64,000 nucleotides of DNA from the human T2T-CHM13v2.0 reference genome, Homo sapiens, in the NCBI RefSeq assembly GCF_009914755.1, contig NC_060929.1, one strand, 5' to 3'. Position numbers and translations under genes: made by a program. Below the pieces are notes generated by a model. That model was not told the origin of the DNA and did no database searches. It was given only the letters and a program-made list of their open reading frames with translations. Positions 28,786-46,422 of the stretch are shown one piece after another (within the stretch, counting starts at the first letter, position 1; the number at the start of each line of letters is the position of its first letter).

Positions 28786-30398
28786 AGGTCCAGGTTGCAA
28801 ATGATCTCACTGGGTTGAGTTCAGATCTAAATAGAATGTGTTGACTGTGACTAATAACCTGTAAAATAGATTTTTTTCTTATTTGATTTTGATGGCACAT
28901 TTTCATAGTAACATATTTTTTCAGCCATATTTTCATAACCTGTGATATTTGAAATGATTTGAGACCAGAGCTGTTGTTGCTTATCTTGACTTAAAAAGAA
29001 AGACCACTGAAATAGAGCCTGTGACTTTTTCCCCAGTTCCTCAGTTTTTTCTGACAGCCAAAAAATAAATCCTGAATTTTTCTAGACTTGATGGAATGAC
29101 AAACATGATTTCATTAATACAATACTTAACTGTAAACCAAGGGTTTGCACATACATCATCTCACTTAATCCACACAAACGTATATGGCAGCATTAATAAC
29201 CCTTTAACACACACTGAAGTATTTGTGAGTGATAGGACATTGGCTAGCAATTTACTCTCCAATGGTTCTGAAAAAAAGAGTTCTATGTACTGTATTCAAA
29301 TCTTTTCTGTAAGTTTGAAATTGTCTCAAATTTAAAATCTTATACCAAAAAAAATCTTATAATTTGTTCACTGGATGCAGTGATTATCCATTCTCCTACT
29401 TCTATTCTGTGTACAAGCTAAAGAAAGGTAAAATTCTTCAAAGAGAAATTACAAATAAAACTCCCCAAACATCACTCAAAATTAAAGTGTTGAGAAGTAG
29501 TTCATGAGCTTGGTGATTGTGGCTGCTCTGACTGAGGTTATAATTATGAAGCTGGATAGCTAAAAGTAAAGATAGAGAGGGGATAATAATAATAATAGTG
29601 TAACGTATCTTGAGTGTTCATTCCCAGGTACTAATTTTTGTAAGCATTTTGCATATGTTAACTTATTACTTATAACACCCTTAGAAGGAAGGAAGTTTGT
29701 TAGCCCAACTATAAAATAGTTGGTAAAACTGAGGCCCAGCAAGGTAAATAACTTCCCCATTGGAAAAGCTGTGCCATGAATACAGACAGGCTGGCTTCAG
29801 GACCTGTGCTCTTTGTCACTAAACAAAGAACAAGGGCACTGAAAGCACAAAAGAGCAGCCTCAACCCTAGAAAGATGTGGAGAAGCTGGAGACAGTGTTT
29901 AGCAAACATCAAGCTTGTCAGGAGCCCACACACCTCAGTAAAAAGGCCTCCTCCACCCTGTACTACCAAAAGAATCATAGCGCATGTTGTTAAATCAAAC
30001 TAAATATGGCCTGAGAAAGCCTCCATACTTCCATATTTGAATCCTTGTGGATGAACTATAACCACCTTAGTAGGTAGACAAGACTGAAGTATGCTTCTGT
30101 AACAATAGGTGAGTCTCAGCCAATCCCAGAAGCTATACTTAACCACTCATATGCCGCTGACTGTTCAAACTATGCTCAAATAAGACATGCACCAAGCTGT
30201 AACCAATCCATCTGTTTCTGTACCTCACCTCTGTTTTTTTATACATCACTTTCCTTTTATTGTTCTGACCGTGAGGCATCCCTGGAGTCACTCTGAATCT
30301 GCTGTGATTCTGGAGGCTGCCCAATTTTTTTCTTTTTTTTTCCCTTGCTCAATTAAACTGTTAAATTTAATTTGTCTAAAGTTTTCTTTTAACAGATC

Positions 30399-32470: not shown

Positions 32471-34364
32471 AATTTTCCTTGCTCCTTTCAAATAGCTTCT
32501 CCTGAAAATTCTCATGATAGTACTTATAATCAGAGGCCAAGGGTTTTAATCTTTATATTTTTTCTAGAGGCTTTCCAAGTTATTATGGCTTGTATTACCA
32601 GGGTAACAGTAAAAATGAGATCCTCTTTAAATCAGGCCACTTTACGGAGCGCTATGATCCTTAACTGTTCTCACTCTCTGAGCAAGGACTATGACCAATT
32701 TGACCCTAAGACTGTCGAACTGCTTATATTGTCTGAACCTTCAGTTGGTTAATTTGGTTCAGTTCATTTTCACAAGAACTCCTGTTAAGAAGTATACCTT
32801 GGTATTTTGGTATAATCCTCTTTATAGTCCTAATAATAGTCCCCTTGGTGCACTGTATCTCTCAAGTCCTAAATGTCTTGTACGTGGCTATCCATTGAGA
32901 GTTAAATGGTCTCACTCCAACTGTGTCAGCAACAACATAAACATTCAGCTGGTACAAAGCTGCGACTTGTGAATTTCCTACTGACATTAAAGAAGACTTG
33001 TGAATTCCGTAATGAGACTGAAGAAGTCTTTCATGATGGTGACAGAGAATGGTGTCAATTCCTAAAGTTTGGTCAATCTCTCTAAATGGAGAGACTGACC
33101 AAAAATGGGGAATTGTTAAATCGAACTAAATATGGCCTGAGAAAGCCTCTGTAACTCCATTTTTGAGTCCTTGTGGATGAACTGTATCCTACCTTAGTGG
33201 GTAGATAAGATTGAAAACCTAACTTAGGAATATGCTTCTATAGCAACAGCTGAGTCTCAGCCCATCCCATCAGCCATACTTCAACCACTCATATGCTGCT
33301 GACTGTTCAAACTGTGTTCAAATAAGGCAGACACTAAGCTGTAACCAATCCAGCTGTTTCTGAACCTCACTTCTGTTTTCTCTACGCCACTTTCCCTTTT
33401 TTTGTCTATAAATTTGCTGTGATCACGAGGTATCCCTGGGGTCATTCTGCATCTGCTGTGATTCTGGAGGCTGTCCAATTCATTAACCTTTTTTTTCCTT
33501 GCTCTATTAAACTCTTTTGAATTTAATTTGTCTCAAGTTTTCTTTTAACAATGTAAACATTTAGCAATGGGGAAATGATTTGTAGCCAAGACACTAATCC
33601 TGGACCTATAACTTGGCAAAGTAAAACACAAACTTTTGTTCTTCTTTGATTTGCACCCACATGATGGATGTGCAGTCTGGCATTTTTTTTGGAAGGGTGT
33701 GGAGCTTACATATACAAGACATTAGGGCCAAGGTCAAAGCCTGACTGATTACACTGGTAAAGATGCAAGAAGACACTTTTAGATTTAGCGTTTATTACTT
33801 AGATAGATATCAAAAGAGTAAACCAAAAGTGCCAAACCCCTCTCATTCATATTCCACACATCAGAAAAGACCACACCCAAACAAAAGGGCCCAATAACTG
33901 CACTGGGAACTGCTGCTGCTGAGGAGCGAACGGTAGACTTCAGCTAAAAGGTTTTGGATCAGTAGTGGGTGGGGCCAGAGTCTTCCCGGACACTGAAAAA
34001 TCTTCCTGTCTTGTCTTACACTAATCTGCTTTATAATCCCCATGAGCAGATACTCCTGCTTGAGAATTCATATTTATTCCCAGTGATCAAGTCATTCCAG
34101 ATCAAGGACAAAGCTTATCAGTCAATCAGAGTTTAGGGTTCTGGAGCCAGACCCTCGCATCTAACTCATCTTACACACTCTTGGCTTGTCTGATTGTAAA
34201 CTAAACATTGTTCGATATCTGTCATGGGCAGATGCTATGCATGAAGAGTGGTGGGCATAGAAAAGTGAAAGACACTGTCCCATGCAGCTTTCTTGGCATA
34301 CCTTATTGTCTCTGTTTGTTTTCTAAAATAAGCCTTTGTGAATTCTAATGTTATTTCTCATCAA

Positions 34365-37300
34365 ACAAACTTGACAGTAGTTCCAAATAGCCAGAAAATG
34401 GCACTTTGAATTTTTCCATCCTGCAAGATCTAAATAATTCTTATAATAAAATAGGCAAATGGTCTGAGGTGCCTGACATCCAGGCATTCTTTTACAAATC
34501 AGTCCCTTCCTAGTCTCTGTGCCCAGTGCAACTCGTCCCAAGTCTTCCTTCTTTCCCTCCCGCCTGTCCCCTCAGTACCATCCCAAGCGTTGCTGAGTCT
34601 TTCTAATCTTCCTTTTCTACAGACCCATCTAACCTGTCCCTTCCTCCCCAGGCTGCTCCTTGCCAGGCCGAGCTAGGTCCCAATTCTTCCTCAGCCTCCG
34701 CTCCTCCACCCTATAATCTTTTTATCGCCTCCCCTCCTCACGCCTGGTCTACCTTACAGTTTCCTTCTGTGACTGGCCCTCCCCGACCTGCCCAGCAATT
34801 TACTCTTAAAAAGGTGGCTGGAGCTAAAGGCATAGTCAAAGTTAATGCTCCTTTTTCTTTATCCCAAATCAGATAGCGTTTAGGCTCTTTGTCATCAAAT
34901 ATAAAAACCCAGCCCAGTTCATGACTTGTTTGGCAGCAACCCTGAGACGCTTTACAGCCCTAGAACCTAAAAGGTCAAAAGGCCGTCTTATTCTCAAAAT
35001 ACATTTTATTACCCAATCTGCTCCCGACATTAAATAAAACTCCAAAAATTAAATTCCGGCCCTCAAACCCCACAACAGGATTTAATTAACCTCGCCTTCA
35101 AGGTGTACAATAATAGAAAAAAGTTGCAATTCCTTGCCTCCACTGTGAGACAAACCCCAGCCACATCTCCAGCACACAAGAACTTCCAAACACCTGAACC
35201 GCAGCCGCCAGGTGTTCCTCCAGAACCTCCTCCCAGAGGAGCTTGCTACACGTGCCGGAAATCTGGCCACTGGGCCAAGGAATGCCCGCAGCCTGGGATT
35301 CCTCCTAAGCTTCGTCCCATCTGTGTGGGACCCCACTGAAAATCGGACTGTTCAACTCACCTGACACCCACTCCCAGAGCCCCTGGAACTCTGGCCCAAG
35401 GCTCTCTGACTGATTCCTTCCCAGATCTTCTCGGCTTAGTGGCTGAAGACTGACACTGCCCGATCACCTCGGAAGCCCCCTAGACCATCACGGACGCCGA
35501 GCTTCGGGTAACTCTCACAGTGGAAGGTAAGCCCGTCCCCTTCTTAATCAATACGGAGGCTACCCACTCCACATTACCTTCTTTTCAAGGGCCTGTTTCC
35601 CTTGCCTCCATAACTGTTGTAGGTATTGACAGCCAGGCTTCTAAACCTCTTAAAATTCCCCAACTCTGGTGCCAACTTAGACAATACTCTTTAAAGCACC
35701 CCTTTTTAGTTATCCCCACCTGCCCAGTTCCCTTATTAGGCTGAGACACTTTAACTAAATTATGCACTTCTGTGACTATTCCTGGACTACAGCTATATCT
35801 CATTGCCGCTCTTCTTCCCAAAGAAGGCTCTTCCCAAAGCCTCTTTTGCCTCTTCCTCTTGTATCCCCCCACCTTAACCCACAAGTATAAGATACCTCTA
35901 CTCCCTCCTTGGCGACCGATCATGCACCACTTACCATCTCATTAAAACCTAATCACCTTTACCCCACTCAACGCCAATATCCCATCCCGCAGCACACTTT
36001 AAAAAGATTAAAGCCTGTTATCACTCGCCTGCTAGAGCATGGCCTTTTAAAACCTATAAACTCTCCTTACAATTCCCCCATTTTACCTGTCCTAAAACCA
36101 GACAAGTCTTACAATTTAGTTCAGGATCTGCGCCTTATCAACCAAATTGTTTTGCCTATCCACCCCATGGTGCCAAACCCATATACTCTCCTATCCTCAA
36201 TACCTGCCTCTACAACCCATTATTCTGTTCTAGATCTCAAACATGCTTTCTTTACTATTCCGTTGCACCCTTAATCCCAGCCTCTCTTCGCTTTCACTTG
36301 GACTGACCCTGACACCCATCAAGTTCAGCAATACCTAGGCTGTACTGCCGCAAAGCTTCACAGACAGCCCCCATTACTTCAATCAAGCCCAAATTTCTTC
36401 CTCATCTGTTACCTATCTCGGCATAATTCTCATAAAAACACACGTGCTCTCCCTGCCAATCGTGTCCAACTGATCTCTCAAACCCAAGCACCTTCTACAA
36501 AACAACAACTCCTTTCCTTCCTAGGCATGGTTAGCGCGGTCAGAATTCTTACACAACAGCCAGGACCACACCCTGTAGCCTTTCTGTCCAAACAACTTGA
36601 CCTTACTGTTTTAGCCTAGCCCTCATGACTGCGTGCAGCGGCTGCCGCTGCTTTAATATTTTTAGAGGCCCTCGAAATCACAAATTGTGCTCAACTCACT
36701 CTCTACAGTTCTCATAACTTCCAAAATCTATTTTCTTCCTCATACCTGATGCATATACTTTCTGCTTCCCGGCTCCTTCAGCTATACTCACTCTTTGTTG
36801 AGTCTCCCACAATTACCATTGTTCCTGGCCCAGACTTCAATCTGGCCTCCCACATTATTCCTGATACCACACCTGACCCCCATGACTGTATCTCTCTGAT
36901 CCACCTGACAATCACATTTCCCCAAATTTCCTTCTTTCCTGTTCCTTACCCTGATCACGCTTGATTTATTGATGGCGGTTCCACCAGGCCTAATCGCCAC
37001 ACACCAGCAAAGGCAGGTTATGCTATAGTACAAGGCACTAGCCCGCCTCTTAGAACCTCTCATTTCCTTTCCATCATGGAAATCTATCCTCAAGGAAATT
37101 ACTTCTCAGTGTTCCATCTGCTATTCTACTACTCCTCAGGGATTATTCAAGCCCCCTCCCTTCCCTACACATCAAGCTCCAGGATTTGCCCCACCCAGGA
37201 CTGGCAAATTAGCTTTACTCAACATGCCCTGAGTCAGATAACTAAAATACCTCTTAGTCTAGGTAGACACTTTCACTGGATAGGTACAGGCCTTTCCTAC

Positions 37301-38742
37301 AGGGTCTGAGAAGGCCACCGCAGTCATTTCTTCCTTTCTGTTAGAGACATAATTCCTCAGTTTAGCCTTCCCACATCAATACAGTCTGGTAACAGTTGAG
37401 CCTTTATTAGTCAAATCAGCCAAGCAGTTTTTCAGGCTCTTAGTATTCAGTGAAACCTTTATATCCCTTATGGTCCTCCATCTTCAAGAAAAGTAGAATG
37501 GACCAAAGGTCTTTAAAAAACACACCTCACCAAGCTCAGCCACCAACTTAAAAAGAACTGGACAATACTTCTACCACCTTCTCTTCTCAGAATTCAGGCC
37601 TGTCCTCAGAATGCTACAGGATACAGCGCATTTAAGCTCCTGTATAGATGCTCCTTTTTATTAGGCCCCAGTCTTATTCCAGACACCAGACCAACTTAGA
37701 CTGTGCCCCCCAAAAAACTTGTCATCCTTACTATCTTCTGTCTAGTCATACTCCTATTCACCGTTCTCAACTACTCATACATGCCCTGCTCTTGTTTACA
37801 CTGCCGGTTTCCACTGTTTTTCCAAGCCATCCCAGCTGATATCTCCTTGAGATATCCCCAAACTGCCACTCTTAACTCTTGAAGTAAATAAATAATCTTT
37901 ACTGGCAAGACTATGCTGAATCTCCTTAGGCACTCTCTAATCAGATATCCTGAGTCATCCCAATTCTTAGACCTTTTATACCTGTTTTTCTCCTTCTGTT
38001 ATTCCATTTCGTTTCTCAATTCATCCAAAACCGTATCCAGGCCATCACCAATCATTATATACGACAAATATTTCTTCTAACATCCCCACAATATCACCCC
38101 TTACCACAAGACCTCCTTTCAGCTTAATCTCTCCCACTCTAGGTTCCCACGCCGCCCCTAATCCCGCTTGAAGCAGCCCTGAGAAACATCGCCCATTCTC
38201 TCTGCATACCACCCCCCAAAAATTTACACCGCCCCAACACTTCAACACTATTTTGTTTTATTTTTATTATTAATATAAGAAGGCAGGAATGTCAGGCCTC
38301 TGAGCCCAAGCCAAGTCATCGTATCCCCTGTGACTTGCACGTATACGCCCAGATGGCCTGAAGTAACTGAAGAATCACAAAAGAAGTGAATATGCCCTGC
38401 CCCACCTTAACTGATGACATTCCACCACAAAAGAAGTGTAAATGGCTGGTCCTTGCCTTAAGTGATGACATTACCTTGTGAAAGTCCTTCTCTTGGCTCA
38501 TCCTGGCTCAAAAAGCACCCCCACTGAGCACCTTGCGACCCCCACTCCTGCCCGCCAGAGAACAAACTCCCTTTGACTGTAATTTTCCTTTACCTACCCA
38601 AATCCTATAAAATGGCCCCACCCCTATCTCCCTTCGCTGACTCTCTTTTCGGACTCAGCCCGCCTGCACCCAGGTGAAATAAACAGCCATGTTGCTCACA
38701 CAAAGCCTGTTTGGTGGTCTCTTCACAGGGACGTGCATGAAA
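34365..38742 (+). mobile_element. 5'-truncated HERV-H (gag to pol/env remnants) with 3' LTR7 at 38290-38742
   Basis: Zinc knuckle CYTCRKSGHWAKEC, protease-like LINTEATHS, RT motifs YNSPILPV, LVQDLR and VLDLKHAFF, PPT aagaaggcaggaa then TGTCAGGCCTCTGAG...GCATGAAA. No 5' LTR or PBS found. Confidence 0.95.
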
Positions 38743-39290
38743 AAAAGCTTTTCACATAACTCTTGACCCATTGAAAAGAAGAAAAAAAAACCCAACTTAA
38801 AGTGCAGGGCTGTGTTAACTGCTGACAGGGTTGAGAAAAGGAAAAAAAAAAAAAAAAAAAAAAACCCTCAAAGTGCGGGGTTGGAAAGATGCCTGAGGGA
38901 AGAAGCTCTTATTCTTATGCAAATGGTTTCTCCAAGAGGGAGAGAAACTTAATTGCTGTTTGTTCCCTGGGGTTCGCATGGAGCTGGATCCCTCAGCCAG
39001 GAGAGGGGAAGACACTGTGGATGTGTGGCTAGGAACACTGGCCAGCCTGCCACATGTGGCCTTTGGGCCATGAGCCCCAGTCTCTTCCGGGAGGGGAGTG
39101 GGGCAGAGAGCTGCTGCTCACCTGTTCATTCCAAACAAATCAGGAAAATGTCATAGAAAGCCTGGCTTGGACTGAGGCTGATATCCCCAACCACCAAGAG
39201 TGATGGCGGGATGGGGGACAGTTTCCTTTACCCTCAGAAGAAGCCTGAGGGAAGAAAGACTCTGAAACAAAAGGGAAACAACACCCCTAC
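38743..39290 (-). mobile_element. Probable ERV1 internal (leader-like) fragment between the two HERV-H elements
   Basis: Resembles MER4-group/HUERS internal leader in antisense. Contains octamer ATGCAAAT at 38917-38924. Family uncertain. Confidence 0.5.
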
Positions 39291-39536
39291 TTCCCCTTCT
39301 TGCCTGGGGGCTAGAATGTCTTTCTAGGACTAACATTAGCCAAAAGATTAGAAATTATGATTTAGCAGTCATGTACCTGGAAGTTACAAGATTCTGACTC
39401 TCCCCAAATTGCCCCTGGGGATAACATCACTATTGTAAAACCTGAGATCAGTGCTTGAGATATTTTGCAGACTCTGCACTTGATGGATCAGTTGGCACCA
39501 CCCACATGGATAAACTGGCTCATCTGATCTTGTAGC

Positions 39537-42500
39537 TTTCATGCGCGTCCGTGTGAAGAGACCACCAAACAGGCTTTGTGTGAGCAACATGGCTGTTTAT
39601 TTCACCTGGGTGCAGGCAGGCTGAGTCCGAAAAGAGAGTCAGAGAAGGGAGATAAGGGTGGGGCCGTTTTATAGGATTTGGGTAGGTAAAGGAAAATTAC
39701 AGTTAAAGGGAGTTTGTTCTCTGGTGGGCTGGAGTGGGGGTGGCAAGGTGCTCAGTGGGGGTGCTTTTTGAGCCAGGATGAGCCAAGAGAAGGAATTTCA
39801 CAAGGTAATGTCATCACTTAAGGCAAGGACCGGCCATTTACACTTCTTTTGTGGTGGAATATCATCAGTTAAGGTGGGGCAGGGCATATTCACTTCTTTT
39901 GTGATTCTTCAGTTACTTCAGGCCATCTGGGCGTATACGTGCAAGTCACAGGGGATGCGATGGCTTGGCTTGGGCTCAGAGGCCTGACATTCCTGCCTTC
40001 TTATAGTAATAATAAAAGTAAAATAAAATAGTGTTGAAGTGTTGGGGAGGCGAAAATTTTTGGGGGGGTGGTATGCAGAGAGAATGGGCGATGTTTCTCA
40101 GGGCTGCTTCAAGCGGGATTAGGGGCGGCGTGGGCACCTTGAGTGGGAGAGATTAAGATTTTAGTTTCCTGACTCCGGACAAGTTGAGTAAAGCTAATTT
40201 GCCAGTCCTGGGTGGGGGCAAATCCTCGAGCTTGATGTGTAGGGAAGGGAGGGGGCCTGAATAATCCTTGAGGAGTAGTAGAATAGCAGATGGAACACTG
40301 AGAAGTTATTTCCTTGAGGATAGATTTCCATGATGGAAAGGAAATGAGAGGTTCTAAGAGGCGGGCTAGTGCCTTGTACTATAGCATAACCTGCCTTTGC
40401 TGGTGTGTGGCGATTAGGCCTGGTGGAACCACCATCAATAAATCAAGCGTGATCAGGGTGAGGAACAGGAAAGAAGGAAATTTGGGGAAATGGGGTGAAT
40501 GTCAGGTGGATCAGAGAGATACAGTCATGGGGGTCAGGTGTGGTATCAGGAATAATGTGGGAGGCCAGATTGAAGTCTGGGCCAGGAACAACGGTAATTG
40601 TGGGAGACTCAACAAAGAATGAGTACAGCTGAAGGAGCCGGGAAGCAGAAAGTATATGCATCAGGTATGAGGAAGAAAATAGATTTTGGAAGTTATGAGA
40701 ACTGTAGAGAGTGAGGTGAGCACAGTTTGTGATTTTGAGGGCCTCTAAAGTATTAAAGCAGCGGCAGCCGCTGCACGCAGACATGAGGGCTAGGCTAAAA
40801 CAGTAAGGTCAAGTTGTTTGGACAGAAAGGCTACAGGGTGTGGTCCTGGCTGTTGTGTAAGAATTCTGACCGCGCTAACCATGCCTAGGAAGGAAAGGAG
40901 TTGTTGTTTTGTAGAAGGTGCTTGGGTTTGAGAGATCAGTTGGACACGATTGGCAGGGAGAGCACGTGTGTTTTTGAGAATTATGCCGAGATAGGTAACA
41001 GATGAGGAAGAAATTTGGGCTTGATTGAAGTAATGGGGGCTGTCTGTGAAGCTTTGCGGCAGTACAGCCTAGGTAATTTGCTGAGCTTGATGGGTGTGTC
41101 AGGGTCAGTCCAAGTGAAAGCGAAGAGAGGCTGGGATTAAGGGCGCAACGGAATAGTAAAGAAAGCATGTTTGAGATCTAGAACAGAATAATGGGTTGTA
41201 GAGGCAGGTATTGAGGATAGGAGAGTATATGGGTTTGGCACCATGGGGTGGATAGGCAAAACAATTTGGTTGATAAGGCGCAGATCCTGAACTAAATTGT
41301 AAGACTTGTCTGGTTTTAGGACAGGTAAAATGGGGGAATTGTAAGGAGATTTTATAGGTTTTAAAAGGCCATCCTCTAGCAGGTGAGTGATAACAGGCTT
41401 TAATCTTTTTAAAGTGTGCTGCGGGATGGGATATTGGTGTTGAGTGGGGTAAGGGTGATTAGGTTTTAGTGAGATGGTAAGGGGTGCATGATCGGTCGCC
41501 AAGGAGGGAGTAGAGGTATCTTATACTTGTGGGTTAAGGTGGGGGGATACAAGAGGAAGACGCAAAGGAGGCTTTGGATTGGGAAGAATGGCGGAATGAG
41601 ATATAGCTGTAGTCCAGGAGTAGACAGGGAAGCCGATAATTTAGTCAAAGTGTCTCAGCCTAATAAGGGAACTGGGCAGGTGGGGATAACTAAAAAGGAG
41701 TGCTTAAAAGAGTACTGTCTAAGTTGGCACCAGAGTTGGGGAGTTTTAAGAGGTTTAGAAGCCTGGCCGTCAATACCTACAACAGTTATGGAGGCAAGGG
41801 AAACAGGCCCTTGAAAAGAAGGTAATGTGGAGTGGGTAGCTTCCATATTGATTAACACGGGGACGGACTTACCTTCCAGTGTGAGAGTTACCCGAAGCTC
41901 CGCGTCCGTGATGGTCTAGGGGGCTTCCGAGGTGATCGGGCAGTGTCGGTCTTCAGCCGCTAAGCCGAGAAGGAGTCAGAGAGACTTAGGCCAGAGTTCC
42001 GGGGGCTCTGCGAGTGGCTGCCAGGTGAGTTGAACAGTCCGATTTCCAGAGGGGTCCTACACAGATGGGACACGGCTTAGGAGGAATCCTGGGCTGCAGG
42101 CATTCCTTGGCCTGGTGGTCAGATTTCTGGCACTTGTAGGAAGCTCCTGGGAGAGGAGGTTCTGGAGGAACACCTGGCGGCTGCGGTTCAGGTGTTTGGA
42201 AGTTCTTGTGTGCTGGAGATGTGGCTGGGGTTTGTCTCACAGTGGAGGCAAGGAATTGCAACTTTTTTCTATTATTGTACACCTTGAAGGCGAGGTTAAT
42301 TAAATCTTGTTGTGGGGTTTGAGGGCCGGAATTTAATTTTTGGAGTTTTATTTAATGTCGGGAGCAGATTGGGTAATAAAATGTATATTAAGAATAAGAC
42401 GGCCTTTTGACCTTTTAGGGTCTAGGGCTATAAAGTGTCTCAGGGTTGCTGCCGAACGAGCCATGAACTGGGCTGGGTTTTTATATTTGATGACAAAGAG

Positions 42501-44229
42501 CCTAAACGCTATCTGATTTGGGATAAAGAAAAAGGAGCATTAACCTTGACTATGCCTTTAGCTCCAGCCACCTTTTTAAGGATAAATTGCTGGGCAGGTG
42601 GGGGAGGGCTAGTCACAGAAGGAAACTGTAAGCCGGACTAGGCGTGAGGAGGGGAGGCGATAAAATGATTATAGGGTGGAGGAGCGGAGGCTGAGGAAGA
42701 ATTGGGACCTAGCTCGGCCTGTCGAGGAGGGGAGAGGTCAGATGGGTCTGTAGAAAAGGAAGATTAGAAAGACTTAGCGACGCTTGGGGTTGGTACTGAG
42801 GGGACAGGCGGGAGGGAAAGAAGGAAGATTTGGGTCAAGTTGCACTGGACACAGAGACTAGGAAGGGACTGATGTGTAAAAGAATGCCTGGACGTCAGGC
42901 ACCTCAGACCATTTGCCCATTTGACGACAGTTTGTATTGGGGTCAAGCGGCATTGCAGAAGAAAATAAGACATTTAGGTTTTAGGTCAGGTATGAGTTGA
43001 AGAGGTTTTAAATTTTTGAGAACACAGGCTAAGGGAGAAGGAGGAGGAATGGAAGGTGGAAGCTTACCTATAGTGAAGGAGGCAAGCCCAGAGAAAAGAG
43101 TAGAGACACGGAGGAGGGGTTGCAGGGGGGTGGTTCTTGCCCTCCAGAAAAGCAGAGAAGGGGTAGGGGCATGGAAATAAGGGATTGGGGCACAGAGATA
43201 AGAGGTTGGGGTGTGGAAATAAGCGATTGGGGGTTCTTGCCCCCTAGGAAACTGGGACTTGCCGCTAAGGGTGAAGGAGAAGGGGTTGAGGGGTACTTGC
43301 CCCTGCCCCAGGAAAGCGGGACTTGCCGCTAAGGGTGAAGGACCAAGGCAGGCGTCCCTGCGTGGTCTGACACCCTTGAAACGTGAGTGTAAAATCAGAG
43401 AGGCGTCCCTGCAATGATTAAACACCAAGGGAAGGCTGCCTTCCCAGTCGGTGACCGGTGCCGGAGTTTTGGGTTCACGGATAAAACATGTCTCTTTTGT
43501 CTCTACCAGAAAATGAAAGGAATTGAAATTAAGATAAGGGAGAGACTGAAGTGTGGCGCCAAGATTGAAAGGAGAAAGAGGTTGAGGGATAGTGAGGGAG
43601 GTTGGAGAAGAGAGTAAAAAGAGGCCGCTTACCGGATTTGAAATTGGTGAGATGTTTCTTGGGCTGGTTGGTCTGAGGACCTGAGATGGTAGGTGGATCT
43701 TTCTCACGGAGCAAAGAGCAGGAGGACAGGGGATTGATCTCCTAAGGGAGGTCCCCCGATCCGAGTCATGGCACCAAATTTCATGCGCGTCCGTGTGAAG
43801 AGACCACCAAACAGGCTTTGTGTGAGCAACATGGCTGTTTATTTCACCTGGGTGCAGGCGGGCTGAGTCCGAAAAGAGAGTCAGCGAAGGGAGATAAGGG
43901 TGGGGCCGTTTTATAGGATTTGGGTAGGTAAAGGAAAATTACAGTTAAAGGGAGTTTGTTCTCTGGCGGGTAGGAGTGGGGGTGGCAAGGTGCTCAGTGG
44001 GTGCTTTTTGAGCCAGGATGAGTCAAGAGAAGGAATTTCACAAGGTAATGTCATCACTTAAGGCAAGGACTGGCCATTTACACTTCTTTTGTGGTGGAAT
44101 GTCATCAGTTAAGGTGGGGCAGGGCATATTCACTTCTTTTGTGATTCTTCAGTTACTTCAGGCCATCTGGGCTTATACGTGCAAGTCACAGGGGATACGA
44201 TGGCTTGGCTTGGGCTCAGAGGCCTGACA
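39537..44229 (-). mobile_element. Two-LTR HERV-H provirus. 5' LTR7 at 43779-44229, 3' LTR7 at 39537-39989, with internal deletions.
   Basis: 5-bp TSD GTAGC (39532-39536, 44230-44234), PBS-His, gag/pro/RT ORF fragments in the track. Confidence 0.97.
43759..43776 (-). other. tRNA-His primer-binding site
   Basis: TGGTGCCATGACTCGGAT, one mismatch from TGGTGCCGTGACTCGGAT. Confidence 0.92.
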
Positions 44230-44599
44230 GTAGCCCCACCCAGGAGTTGACTCAGTGCAACAGGGCAGCTTCAACTCTGGTTTCATCTCCAACCTAACCA
44301 ATCAGCACTCCTGACTCACTGGCCCCTCACCCACCAAGTTATCCTTAAAAACTCTGATCCTTGAATGCCGGAGGAGACTGATTTCAGTAATAATAAAACT
44401 CCAGTCTCCTCCACAGCCAGCTCTAAGTGAATAACTCTGTCTCTATTGCAATTCCCCTGTCTTCATACATTGGCTCTGTCTAGGCAGCAGGCAAGGTGAA
44501 TCTATTGAGTGGTTACAGTAACAATACCATAACAAAGGCACAAGAAAAGGCTACATGGCTGTTTTAAAATGTAGATTCTATTCTTCTTGTGAACAGATC

Positions 44600-45080
44600 A
44601 GGAGTTGACTGCTGTTGAAAAGAGATTTTAGTGTGCTCAGATCCCAATACAAGGGGCCATGACACACCATGGGGCTGGAGGCACACGGGAAGCACCAGGG
44701 TTATTCAAGAGACAGATGGAGTGGAGGAAAATGTGAGCAGGAGTCTTTATTGTGGTTTCTGAAGGAAGACAGGAGAGATGGGGTAAGCAGGTTTTAAATG
44801 GGCTAGTGTGAATAATTTTGGTGGGCTCTGGGATCTTGGGGCTGTCCCTAGTTGGTCATGGGGTGATTAAGGCATGGGAATAATGGCCCACAGTGCACAA
44901 GCCCAATAAAGGTCGTTGGGGCTTTGGGCTCTGGATTGGTTAATTTGCATATGAAAGGCATGCTCCTGGTGATATCTCTAGGAATTAGCTAGTCCTGGGA
45001 AGGGCAGTCCTTTCAAGGTCAGCAAGGCCCCAAGGGGTCAAAACGTTAAAAATACAGAATTAAAAGACATGATTAATACA
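44600..45080 (-). mobile_element. Probable solo LTR, family not assigned
   Basis: Antisense TGTATTAATC start and antisense AATAAA (tttatt near 44746-44751). Confidence 0.45.
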
Positions 45081-46422
45081 GTGGCTCAAAACATAGGAAG
45101 CCCAGAAGTGAACAAGTCCAAGTATGTTTTCAATTCTGAGCATACCCCCAATCCACTTGTTGTCTTTCACAGCTTTCTATTTGCTTCTTCAACAGCACTA
45201 ACCACTAGTGTTTTCTGTTTGTTTACATGTTTCTTGCCTGTGTATCTCACTACATTGTCAGCTCCAGGAAGGCAAGAAATTTGCTTGTCTGGTTTTCTGC
45301 ACTAGTCCTAATTGCTGACACAGTGCCTGAGACACAATGGATACTCAATAAACATTTGTTGAACAAATGAGTGAAAACAATAGTGTTTGATGGTTATCTG
45401 TGTATGCATAATATGATTTGCATGTACACACACATACATACTACTATTCATATATGTATATGTATGTGGATATTTGTGGGTGCTTTTGAGTTGATGTTTT
45501 TCATGTACATTCCAGTCAAGACTGCATGGCTGGCTGACTACTAGATAGACCCAACAGAAATCTATTTGCCCAGGGGTCTCAGGAATCTCCTGGAAAGAAC
45601 TTGCCCTCTAGGACCAGCAGAGAAGCCTGATACAGTACCAATCATTTCAGAGGTTAAAAGAGAGAAGCATTTCTGCATGTATAATGCTATATTTCACCTG
45701 AGGAGGCCTCGGTCCTATCCCTCATGGATTTATAACTTGGCTTTTATAAGAAGTCAGTTTAGAAACTGGAAAACCTATTTTTTATTGAAAGCGCTACAAT
45801 ATTTTAGGATGCTGTGTCAGTCAGAGTCCAGCCAAAAAGTTAAAACCATACCAAGTGACCACACAGAAAGAATTCAACATGTAGGGTAATTTACAAAGTG
45901 CTAGAAATGCAGTTAAAGCAACCAAGCAGAAGATGAATCAACTCTGAGATTAGAAAATGCAGAAAGTTGTTACTCCTTCTAGGTCAGGAAGGACAGTGAT
46001 GAGAAGGTGGGGTCTAGGAGCTGGGGCCATGCAGTAAAAGCTGGAACAATGTTGGCCTGTGTGGCACAGGGGGAACCACAGATAAAGGACCTTTCCAAAA
46101 GGAGATGAGCCTTGGAGAGGGTGCAGCCACTACCCATGATAGCTCCTGAATTGGAGAGAGGGAGACATATCCCTTCTCCTTTTCTCTCTCTCTCCACTCT
46201 TTCACCTGTGCCTTCCCCTGGCTTAACTTAATCAGATGCAGTTGGCAAGGAAGCCTGGAAGCAAGGAAGCCTGGAAACCACATTTTAAAAAGTCAACTTT
46301 CTATAATACAGAGCCAGGAATGAAAGTGAAGAGAAAGGATTTAAAAGCAAGCAAACAAATTTGAGGGCAGCACTGGTTTAGTATTCCAAAAGAGACCATA
46401 ATAAAAAACTAAAGGGCGTCAT

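What the first reader, a model, noticed from the sequence alone, without database searches (positions are those of the whole stretch)
34365..44229. Two HERV-H elements form a multi-kb inverted repeat with a 0.8-kb spacer
Seen: a plus-strand HERV-H (34365-38742) and a minus-strand HERV-H (39537-44229) face each other 3'LTR to 3'LTR, 794 bp apart. Homologous RT ORFs are 115/121 aa identical. Inference: read-through past either 3' LTR would fold into kilobases of dsRNA (an ADAR/MDA5/Dicer substrate), and the DNA is a substrate for inversion by ectopic recombination. The intact GTAGC TSD and continuous LTR8 show this allele has no net inversion.
Basis: partly seen in the sequence, partly recalled or inferred. 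Interest (0 to 1): 0.7.

Follow-up and report, generated by a model that had tools for sequence, protein, structure and literature searches.

The report
Convergent HERV-H provirus pair near SCGB3A2
Two decayed copies of an ancient retrovirus sit tail to tail just upstream of the human SCGB3A2 gene, forming a real multi-kilobase inverted repeat whose arms appear to have copied a short stretch from one another, while its proposed role as a source of double-stranded RNA remains untested.

Summary
A 5'-truncated plus-strand HERV-H (34365-38742) and a complete minus-strand HERV-H (39537-44229, 5-bp duplication GTAGC) face each other 3' LTR to 3' LTR across 794 bp. The arms align over 3,449 columns at 94.9% identity.

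They are independent insertions, not an inverted duplication. The right element lacks 874 bp at a junction shared with three copies on other chromosomes, and in 35265-35864 the arms are among the most divergent of 465 copy pairs.

The spacer has no net inversion. The two halves of the repeat split by the right element are collinear, as in 7 of 7 intact copies examined.

New here: a 0.57-kb core (36062-36627) differs between the arms at 2 of 564 sites. The nearest other genomic copy differs at 9. This is the best window of any of 465 pairs. I read it as arm-to-arm gene conversion, so the arms have recombined.

The dsRNA idea is only inferred. Both 3' LTRs keep AATAAA, the left arm has no 5' LTR, and antisense AATAAA hexamers lie just beyond each LTR.

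The locus is the published LTR7/HERV-H cluster driving SCGB3A2 chimeric transcripts in pluripotent cells. I found no paper discussing its inverted layout. It is an ordinary kind of feature with one modestly new detail.

The parts
34365..38742 (+). Left HERV-H provirus remnant. It is 5'-truncated, lacking the 5' LTR and about 0.77 kb of leader. It keeps a gag zinc knuckle, a protease and an RT-like frame, all broken by stops.
   Evidence: Homology to 9 other copies starts exactly at 34365. Pfam zf-CCHC hits 35034-35339, RVP hits 35484-35744, and RVT_1 hits 35891-36274 below the cut-off. No LTR copy lies upstream in the window. The upstream flank 33565-34364 is essentially unique.
38290..38742 (+). 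Left 3' LTR (LTR7 type), with TATAAAA at 38606-38612, AATAAA at 38678-38683, and the octamer AAAAGAAG twice.
   Evidence: The octamer is the 8-bp insertion described for LTR7up/7u1 in passages of PMC8912925.
37249..38122 (+). 874-bp block present in the left element and in most HERV-H copies but absent from the right element.
   Evidence: The junction was also searched genome-wide.
38743..39536 (.). 794-bp spacer. Its last ~245 bp (39292-39536) are the first half of an older interspersed repeat that the right provirus split. It contains no AATAAA or ATTAAA on either strand.
39537..44229 (-). Right HERV-H provirus with both LTRs, the 5-bp target duplication GTAGC, a PBS-like 18-mer at 43759-43776, and an inherited 874-bp deletion with its junction at 40157/40158.
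   Evidence: The same junction occurs in 3 of 39 non-self scored hits, on C4, C7 and C3.
39537..39989 (-). Right 3' LTR, with TATAAAA at 39667-39673 and AATAAA at 39596-39601.
43779..44229 (-). Right 5' LTR, with TATAAAA at 43909-43915 and AATAAA at 43838-43843. It lies 4.2 kb from the SCGB3A2 start and points away from the gene.
   Evidence: plus the hub annotation for SCGB3A2.
36062..36627 (+). Left copy of the near-identical core, the proposed gene-conversion tract, in the RT-like region.
   Evidence: It differs from the partner at 2 of 564 sites, rank 1 of 465 pairs in this region (next 9), and is the lowest best-window of all 465 pairs (next 6). The partner is the best non-self hit genome-wide, and the closest other copy differs at 9 sites.
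40782..41349 (-). Right copy of the near-identical core.
44230..44517 (.). Second copy of the GTAGC duplication, followed by the second half of the interspersed repeat split by the right provirus.

Best explanation
Two HERV-H proviruses of the young LTR7 type inserted independently and by chance in convergent orientation, 794 bp apart and about 4 kb upstream of SCGB3A2. The right one is complete in outline: two LTRs, a 5-bp duplication and an inherited 874-bp internal deletion. The left one later lost its 5' LTR and leader. Both are non-coding relics.

Together they form an imperfect inverted repeat of about 3.4 kb of alignable sequence at about 95% identity. Since insertion the arms have interacted at the DNA level at least once. 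A patch of about 0.57 kb in the RT-like region was copied from one arm to the other without crossover (gene conversion), long after insertion. No net inversion of the spacer exists in this haplotype.

At the RNA level the layout places two LTR promoters and two poly(A) signals face to face. Any transcript that escapes the poly(A) signal of one 3' LTR would at least carry the antisense of the other LTR and could fold into a ~450-bp stem. Longer stems need further read-through.

Shown: the anatomy, the independence of the insertions, collinearity, and the near-identical patch. Inferred: the conversion mechanism and its timing. Untested: all RNA consequences.

The confidence given is for the whole statement. 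For the parts, I put the anatomy and independent insertion at about 0.95 and the gene-conversion reading of the core at about 0.7.
For: Anatomy.

Independent insertion:
- The right element's deletion junction is shared by 3 dispersed copies (3 of 39 non-self scored hits), while the left element keeps the 874 bp, as do 8 of the 9 other copies.
- In 35265-35864 the arms differ at 46 of 574 sites, rank 459 of 465 pairs.
- The left LTR has genomic LTRs that are closer or as close as the right LTRs.

No inversion: the GTAGC duplication and collinear repeat halves in 7 of 7 intact copies.

Conversion patch:
- 2 of 564 mismatches in 36062-36627. Flanking values are 7/197 to the left (rank 221) and 11/436 to the right (rank 18).
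- When every pair is allowed its best 564-column window, left-right is first of 465 with 2 mismatches; the next four pairs have 6.
- The arms are reciprocal best genome-wide hits in this tract (with 7, 30, 65).
- The nearest other copy is 9 mismatches from both arms.
- The tree of 35865-37064 puts left and right in the only starred clade, support 100/98.
- Outside the core, the right element's nearest relatives are other copies, including the deletion-sharing copy L004.

Clock argument: the right element's own LTRs differ at 10 of 451 sites. The same rate predicts about 12.5 differences in 564 bp. Two were observed, and my Poisson arithmetic gives P of about 3e-4.

Locus activity (passages read in each paper):
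- HERV-H-driven SCGB3A2 chimeric transcript in human ICM, epiblast and hESC (10.1101/318329 and 10.1101/485961).
- Three POU5F1-bound, great-ape- or human-specific LTR7 elements near SCGB3A2 (PMC13371563).
Against: Sampling: only 29-32 other copies were aligned. Each genome search scored 40 of about 1,100-1,250 candidates, so a closer third copy could have been missed.

A strict longest-identical-run permutation test gave only 788 of 20,000 (p about 0.04), and other pairs had longer runs under that scoring.

The core still contains three 2-bp indels private to one arm or the other. These raise the event count to 5 and are unexplained.

Recombination between HERV-H lineages before integration is common (PMC8912925, passages read) and produces mosaics. 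If the left element were much younger than the right, the clock argument weakens; my arithmetic then gives P of about 0.05.

Of the 11 variants shared only by the two arms among the sampled copies, the 2 in the LTR are also in the right 5' LTR. Those two were inherited, not converted.

No outgroup species could be examined.

For the RNA part, no expression, editing or dsRNA data were available. Both poly(A) signals are intact.
Confidence: 0.7

Rival explanations
1. The near-identical core reflects shared descent rather than exchange at this locus. On this view both proviruses came from sister source elements, or from a recombinant source that carried the same RT-region segment, and there was no post-insertion gene conversion.
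For: HERV-H lineages recombined often before integration (PMC8912925, passages). Sister pairs on different chromosomes exist in the same tree, for example L046+L063 and L007+L057 at 94/91. The two LTR variants shared by the arms are also in the right 5' LTR, so they are inherited. The strict run test is only p of about 0.04.
Against: Two copies resident since insertion should have diverged about as much as the right element's own LTRs, 10 of 451 sites. The core shows 2 of 564. No other genomic copy shares the haplotype; the nearest is 9 mismatches from both arms. The one closest relative among more than 1,100 candidates lies 0.8 kb away, which exchange at the locus predicts and shared descent does not. 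Divergence returns to ordinary levels abruptly on both sides of the core.
Confidence: 0.2
2. The pair is an inverted (palindromic) duplication of a single provirus, so the arms are copies of one another.
For: The elements are adjacent and inverted, the left arm is partial, and 11 variants are private to the two arms among 31 aligned copies.
Against: The 874-bp difference is a lineage marker shared by the right element with three dispersed copies, and there is no microhomology at its edges that would favour recurrence. The arms differ at 46 of 574 sites in 35265-35864, rank 459 of 465, and at 38 of the first 100 aligned sites. The left LTR is no closer to the right LTRs than to a dozen other genomic LTRs. 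The right element has its own intact target duplication.
Confidence: 0.03
3. One reading: in cells where LTR7 is active, the locus produces long hairpin or sense-antisense dsRNA that is edited by ADAR, sensed by MDA5 or diced.
For: The arms are complementary; 600 of 621 inner-arm bases pair in a folded 2,035-nt model RNA. The exact runs of 205 and 194 bp are long enough for dsRNA-binding proteins. Three LTR7 elements of the 7up/7u1 type, carrying the AAAAGAAG octamer, are reported as POU5F1-bound and open in iPSC. The two 3' LTR promoters face each other. The spacer has no poly(A) hexamer.
Against: There are no RNA data. Canonical AATAAA is intact in both 3' LTRs, and more hexamers lie just beyond each LTR on the read-through strand. 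The left arm lacks its own 5' promoter. Searches for HERVH with inverted repeat and dsRNA, or with ADAR1 and A-to-I editing, returned only reviews and unrelated work, none naming this locus. The dsRNA-catalogue papers I opened do not mention ERVs or LTRs in their main text. Their supplements were not read.
Confidence: 0.25

Closest known systems
LTR7/HERV-H loci that drive chimeric transcripts in human pluripotent cells (ESRG, ABHD12B, SCGB3A2, LINC-ROR type)
   Same: This is that SCGB3A2 locus. The papers read describe a HERV-H-enforced start site for SCGB3A2 and three POU5F1-bound LTR7 elements nearby. All three LTRs here carry the AAAAGAAG octamer of the ESC-active 7up/7u1 lineage.
   Different: Those papers treat the LTRs as promoters or enhancers. 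In the passages I read, none discusses that the two proviruses are convergent, or that SCGB3A2 (+ strand) lies behind the right element's 5' LTR, so the only plus-strand LTR is the left 3' LTR. Which LTR starts the chimera could not be settled here.
Ectopic (non-allelic) gene conversion between endogenous retrovirus copies (Trombetta et al. 2016, PMC4921805, abstract read; Hughes and Coffin 2005, cited in PMC11359688, not read)
   Same: A short patch of near-identity between paralogous ERV sequences that conflicts with the rest of their history.
   Different: Published cases concern mostly LTRs, and donors are often on other chromosomes. Here the patch lies in the internal RT-like region, between two neighbouring proviruses in inverted orientation.
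Arm-to-arm gene conversion in large palindromes of the sex chromosomes (recalled, not looked up here)
   Same: Inverted arms with a short spacer, homogenised by non-crossover exchange.
   Different: Those palindromes are duplications with above 99.9% identity along the whole arm. Here the arms have separate origins, about 95% identity and only one short homogenised patch.
Inverted-repeat Alu pairs and other retroelement hairpins as endogenous dsRNA (viral mimicry; review PMC11359688, passages read)
   Same: Two retroelement copies in inverted orientation, close enough to be in one transcript.
   Different: Inverted Alu pairs lie inside introns or 3' UTRs of expressed genes and are documented to be edited. 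This pair is intergenic, each arm ends in a working-looking poly(A) signal, and no editing evidence was available.

Membership tests
HERV-H provirus (LTR7 - HERVH-int - LTR7) | Paired LTRs flanked by a 5-bp target-site duplication | tested here: met
   Right element: the LTRs are 97.4% identical and GTAGC lies on both sides. Left element: only the 3' LTR remains, so this cannot be assessed there.
HERV-H provirus (LTR7 - HERVH-int - LTR7) | Internal sequence homologous to the genomic HERV-H family, with gag zinc knuckle, protease and RT in order | tested here: met
   Each tract has 1,141-1,246 first-look candidates in the genome, and the 40 scored hits are 94-98% identical. Pfam zf-CCHC and RVP score above the cut-off in the left arm. 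In the right arm RVP is above the cut-off (21.6 bits against 20.7) and zf-CCHC is below it (16.8 against 20.8). RVT_1 is below the cut-off in both arms.
HERV-H provirus (LTR7 - HERVH-int - LTR7) | Primer-binding site for tRNA-His next to the 5' LTR | tested here: inconclusive
   An 18-mer beginning TGGTGCC lies 2 bases after the right 5' LTR (43759-43776). Its match to tRNA-His is recalled, not tested.
LTR7up/7u1 subfamily (ESC-active lineage, Carter et al. 2022) | 8-bp insertion AAAAGAAG in the duplicated block 2b | tested here: met
   The octamer is present twice in each of the three LTRs. The motif was taken from passages of PMC8912925. Full subfamily assignment by phylogeny was not done.
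Ectopic gene-conversion tract | A patch of near-identity bounded by ordinary divergence on both sides | tested here: met
   2/564 in the core, 7/197 to the left and 11/436 to the right. The core is the best window of 465 pairs.
Ectopic gene-conversion tract | Divergence in the patch lower than the time since both copies were present | tested here: met
   The right LTR pair differs at 10/451 against 2/564 in the core. The Poisson arithmetic is mine. The left element's age is not independently known.
Ectopic gene-conversion tract | Absence of the patch in orthologous loci of outgroup species, or polarity of donor and acceptor | not testable with these tools
   No primate genomes are held. Both arms are equally distant from every other copy in the core, so no direction can be read.
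Inverted segmental duplication / palindrome | Arms derived from one another, with roughly uniform identity | tested here: not met
   A lineage-specific 874-bp deletion is present in one arm only. Identity ranges from 62% to 99.6% by segment.
Inversion polymorphism by recombination between inverted repeats | Spacer found in both orientations | tested here: not met
   This haplotype has the ancestral orientation. Other haplotypes are not available here.
Endogenous dsRNA from inverted retroelements | Both arms present in one transcript, with A-to-I editing clusters | not testable with these tools
   Only complementarity could be shown. The poly(A) hexamers argue for limited read-through.

The most novel reading that the evidence does not exclude
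The inverted HERV-H pair is an active recombination and RNA element rather than a passive accident. On this reading the arms keep exchanging sequence and occasionally flip or delete the spacer in human and ape populations. That would change which LTR faces SCGB3A2, and so whether the pluripotency-specific chimeric transcript is made; the reported difference between gorilla and human iPSC lines would fit this. In cells with active LTR7, the face-to-face 3' LTRs would give a hairpin or convergent transcripts that feed ADAR or Dicer and dampen HERV-H RNA in trans.
Probability: 0.08. Interest if true: 0.7.

Novelty: new member of a known kind. Interest (0 to 1): 0.35.

Why it matters
The locus is one of the textbook cases of a retrovirus-derived promoter rewiring a human gene in early embryonic cells. 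Knowing that it consists of two convergent proviruses, only one of which has a plus-strand LTR facing SCGB3A2, bears on which LTR actually drives the chimeric transcript.

The short converted patch shows that internal regions of neighbouring proviruses, and not only LTRs, can exchange sequence. This affects dating of such elements by sequence divergence. It also marks the pair as a plausible site of structural variation.

If read-through RNA exists, this would be one of the longest natural hairpins available in pluripotent cells. That remains a hypothesis.

Tried and rejected
Inverted duplication of one provirus was rejected.

Splicing or microhomology as the cause of a recurrent 874-bp deletion was rejected. 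The edges show neither GT-AG nor a direct repeat.

Whole-arm sisterhood was considered because 11 variants are private to the two arms. It was rejected as a general claim. Outside the core the arms are ordinary or even distant, the LTR searches show no special kinship, and the two LTR variants are also in the right 5' LTR.

The strict longest-run permutation test was weak (788 of 20,000). It was replaced by a fair best-window scan over all pairs.

A genome-wide census of convergent LTR7 pairs failed. The pattern search lists only the first 100 of 2,917 matches, all on contig 1. Among those 100, no plus-then-minus pair lies within 1 kb; the nearest is 5.9 kb apart.

The family name LTR8 for the split repeat could not be checked.

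The Nature 2014 paper that first described the SCGB3A2 chimera is not held, so the transcript's start site could not be read.

Literature searches for this locus as an inverted repeat or dsRNA source found nothing specific. The supplements of the dsRNA catalogues and of the HERV dimorphism paper (PMC6298018) were not read and may list the locus.

ARAGORN found no tRNA in 33000-46000.
Full report
**What is there**

The window is human chr5 (T2T-CHM13), and the interval lies between SPINK1 and SCGB3A2. Self-comparison confirms a large inverted repeat.
- The repeat finder reports 14 inverted pairs tiling 34396-38742 against 39537-42975.
- blastn joins them into 34449-37248 vs 42922-40158 (94.06%, 2,809 columns) and 38123-38742 vs 40157-39537 (96.1%, 621 columns).
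- In a MAFFT alignment the arms share 3,449 columns, of which 3,274 are identical.
- GC skew flips sign at the spacer, as expected for two copies of one element on opposite strands.

**Anatomy**

The right element (39537-44229, minus strand) has two LTRs, at 39537-39989 and 43779-44229. They differ at 10 substitutions and one 2-bp indel. It also has the 5-bp duplication GTAGC on both sides and a PBS-like 18-mer two bases after the 5' LTR.

The left element (plus strand) ends at 38742 with a 3' LTR (38290-38742). Its homology to nine other HERV-H copies begins abruptly at 34365. No other LTR copy is in the window, and the upstream flank is essentially unique DNA. The left element has therefore lost its 5' LTR and about 0.77 kb of leader. 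How this happened cannot be told here.

Both arms carry, in order, a gag zinc knuckle, a retroviral protease and an RT-like frame, all interrupted by stops. The RT-like frames are 127 aa with 121 identical.

The spacer is 794 bp.

**Independent insertions, not a duplication**

The left arm holds 874 bp (37249-38122) that the right arm lacks. Eight of the nine other copies have this block.

A genome search with the right element's junction found three other copies, on C4, C7 and C3, that match straight across the same junction. The other 36 non-self hits stop at it. The edges show no direct repeat or splice signals that would make the deletion recurrent. The right element therefore descends from a deleted source lineage and the left one does not.

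In 35265-35864 the arms differ at 46 of 574 sites, rank 459 of 465 pairs among 31 aligned copies. At the first 100 aligned bases they differ at 38 sites.

The left LTR has one genomic LTR at 98%, and about a dozen are as close as the right element's LTRs.

**No net inversion**

The last 245 bp of the spacer and the 285 bp after the right element's second GTAGC each match thousands of candidates of one interspersed repeat. In 7 of 7 other copies examined, the two halves are adjacent and in the same orientation. In the cleanest case the join is exact once the 5-bp duplication is allowed for.

A crossover between the arms would have carried the GTAGC-bearing half to the left LTR in reverse orientation, and it has not.

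**Evidence that the arms have exchanged sequence**

I aligned the two arms with 29 other full or near-full copies plus one fragment. These were chosen as the best genome-wide matches to the left arm's pol region, so they are biased towards similarity to the left arm.

Identity between the arms varies strongly along their length. In 36062-36627 they differ at 2 of 564 sites. The next-closest of 465 pairs in that region differs at 9, and the median is 3.35%. Immediately to the left the arms differ at 7 of 197 sites (rank 221). To the right they differ at 11 of 436 (rank 18).

To avoid choosing the window after the fact, I let every pair take its best 564-column window anywhere. Left-right is still first with 2 mismatches. 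Four pairs have 6, and most have 10-16.

Genome searches give consistent results.
- Searches from the right tract and from the left core each return the other arm as the best non-self hit.
- For the left tract the tool did not list the partner. My blastn places it above the nine fetched copies.
- The closest third copy differs from both arms at 9 sites.
- A maximum-likelihood tree of 35865-37064 is star-like except for one strongly supported clade, left plus right (100/98).
- Outside the core the right element's nearest relatives are other copies, including the deletion-sharing copy L004.

The right element's own LTRs, identical at integration, now differ at 10 of 451 sites. The same rate predicts about 12.5 differences in the core, and two are seen. 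My Poisson arithmetic gives about 3e-4, or about 0.05 in the extreme case that only one arm has been ageing. With a recalled rate of about 1e-9 per site per year, this puts the right insertion near 11 million years and the exchange near 2 million years, with a wide range of 0.2-6.

I read this as a gene-conversion tract between the arms.

**Results that weaken the conversion reading**

- A strict longest-run permutation test gave only 788 of 20,000, and other pairs had longer runs under that scoring.
- The core contains three 2-bp indels, one private to the left arm and two to the right. All lie within a central ~170 bp, between perfect blocks of 205 and 194 bp. I cannot explain them.
- Of 11 variants private to the two arms among sampled copies, the two in the LTR are also in the right 5' LTR, so they are inherited.
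- HERV-H lineages are known to have recombined before integration (PMC8912925, passages).
- Each genome search scored only 40 of more than 1,100 candidates.
- No outgroup genome was available.

**RNA potential**

All three LTRs keep a TATA-like TATAAAA, an AATAAA and two copies of AAAAGAAG. AAAAGAAG is the octamer that Carter et al. tie to the ESC-active 7up/7u1 lineage.

The two 3' LTRs point at each other. The spacer has no AATAAA or ATTAAA on either strand. Further AATAAA hexamers lie just beyond each LTR on the read-through strand, at 38257-38268 (minus) and 40011-40027 (plus).

A model read-through RNA of 2,035 nt (38123-40157, minus strand) folds with 600 of 621 arm bases paired to the other arm, which merely restates the complementarity.

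The most likely hairpin, if any, is therefore the LTR-spacer-LTR part. Kilobase stems need several termination signals to be ignored. No expression, editing or dsRNA data could be consulted.

**What is known about the locus**

From passages read in each paper:
- SCGB3A2 is a 'well studied' HERV-H chimeric transcript (10.1101/485961).
- It marks human ICM and epiblast and uses a HERV-H-enforced start site (10.1101/318329).
- Three POU5F1-bound LTR7 elements lie near SCGB3A2, all great-ape- or human-specific. The chimera was expressed in gorilla but not human iPSC lines of that study (PMC13371563).

None of these passages mentions the convergent layout. Searches combining HERVH with inverted repeat and dsRNA, ADAR1 and A-to-I, or SCGB3A2 with HERVH, HERV-H or LTR7 found no paper that discusses it. 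The supplements were not read.

One point follows from the anatomy. SCGB3A2 is on the plus strand, and the right element's 5' LTR points away from it. The only plus-strand LTR is the left 3' LTR, whose transcripts would have to cross the right provirus in antisense. Which LTR starts the chimera is open.

**Comparison with known kinds**

Ectopic gene conversion among ERV sequences is established (PMC4921805, abstract; review PMC11359688, passages). dsRNA from inverted retroelements is also established. This is one more instance of both kinds at a well-known locus. The particular feature here is that the exchange lies in the internal region, between two neighbouring inverted proviruses.

**Verdict**

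The DNA-recombination part of the interpretation gains support from the converted patch. The RNA part remains a reasonable but untested inference that the termination signals temper. Interest is moderate to low.

Noticed in passing
window 36267-36433 (left) and 40975-41145 (right), inside the near-identical core: Three 2-bp indels, one private to the left arm and two private to the right arm, cluster within about 170 bp. The other copies compared show no indels there.
   Followed up: partly
window 42922-43006 (right element), against 34365-34464 (left): Over the first ~100 aligned bases the right element is only about 62% identical to the left and 82-84% identical to other copies. The left element matches other copies at 94-95%. 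The right element therefore carries a divergent segment in its leader/gag boundary.
   Followed up: no
window 42943-43938, minus strand: A stop-free frame of 331 codons runs from the right 5' LTR through the leader. It has no Pfam match. It is probably chance in pyrimidine-rich sequence or a gag remnant.
   Followed up: no
window 33113-33550 and 29987-30394: A direct repeat pair at 80% identity over 439 columns lies upstream of the left element. It is presumably two copies of an older interspersed repeat.
   Followed up: no
G000 contig 1: 217828750(+)/217834678(-), 94505559(-)/94508313(+), 212153326(-)/212155453(+): Other opposite-strand pairs of the LTR7 end motif lie within 2-6 kb of each other among the first 100 matches listed. 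They may be further inverted HERV-H or LTR7 arrangements.
   Followed up: no
G000 C4:23705065, C7:145522534, C3:115139913 (loci L034-L036, L065): Three dispersed HERV-H copies share the right element's 874-bp deletion junction. The C7 copy holds only about the last 0.94 kb of the element. Together they mark a small deletion-variant lineage that was still able to spread.
   Followed up: partly
window 38743-39291: The rest of the spacer holds an A-rich stretch next to the left LTR and an older repeat that matches a contig 21 sequence at 76%.
   Followed up: no
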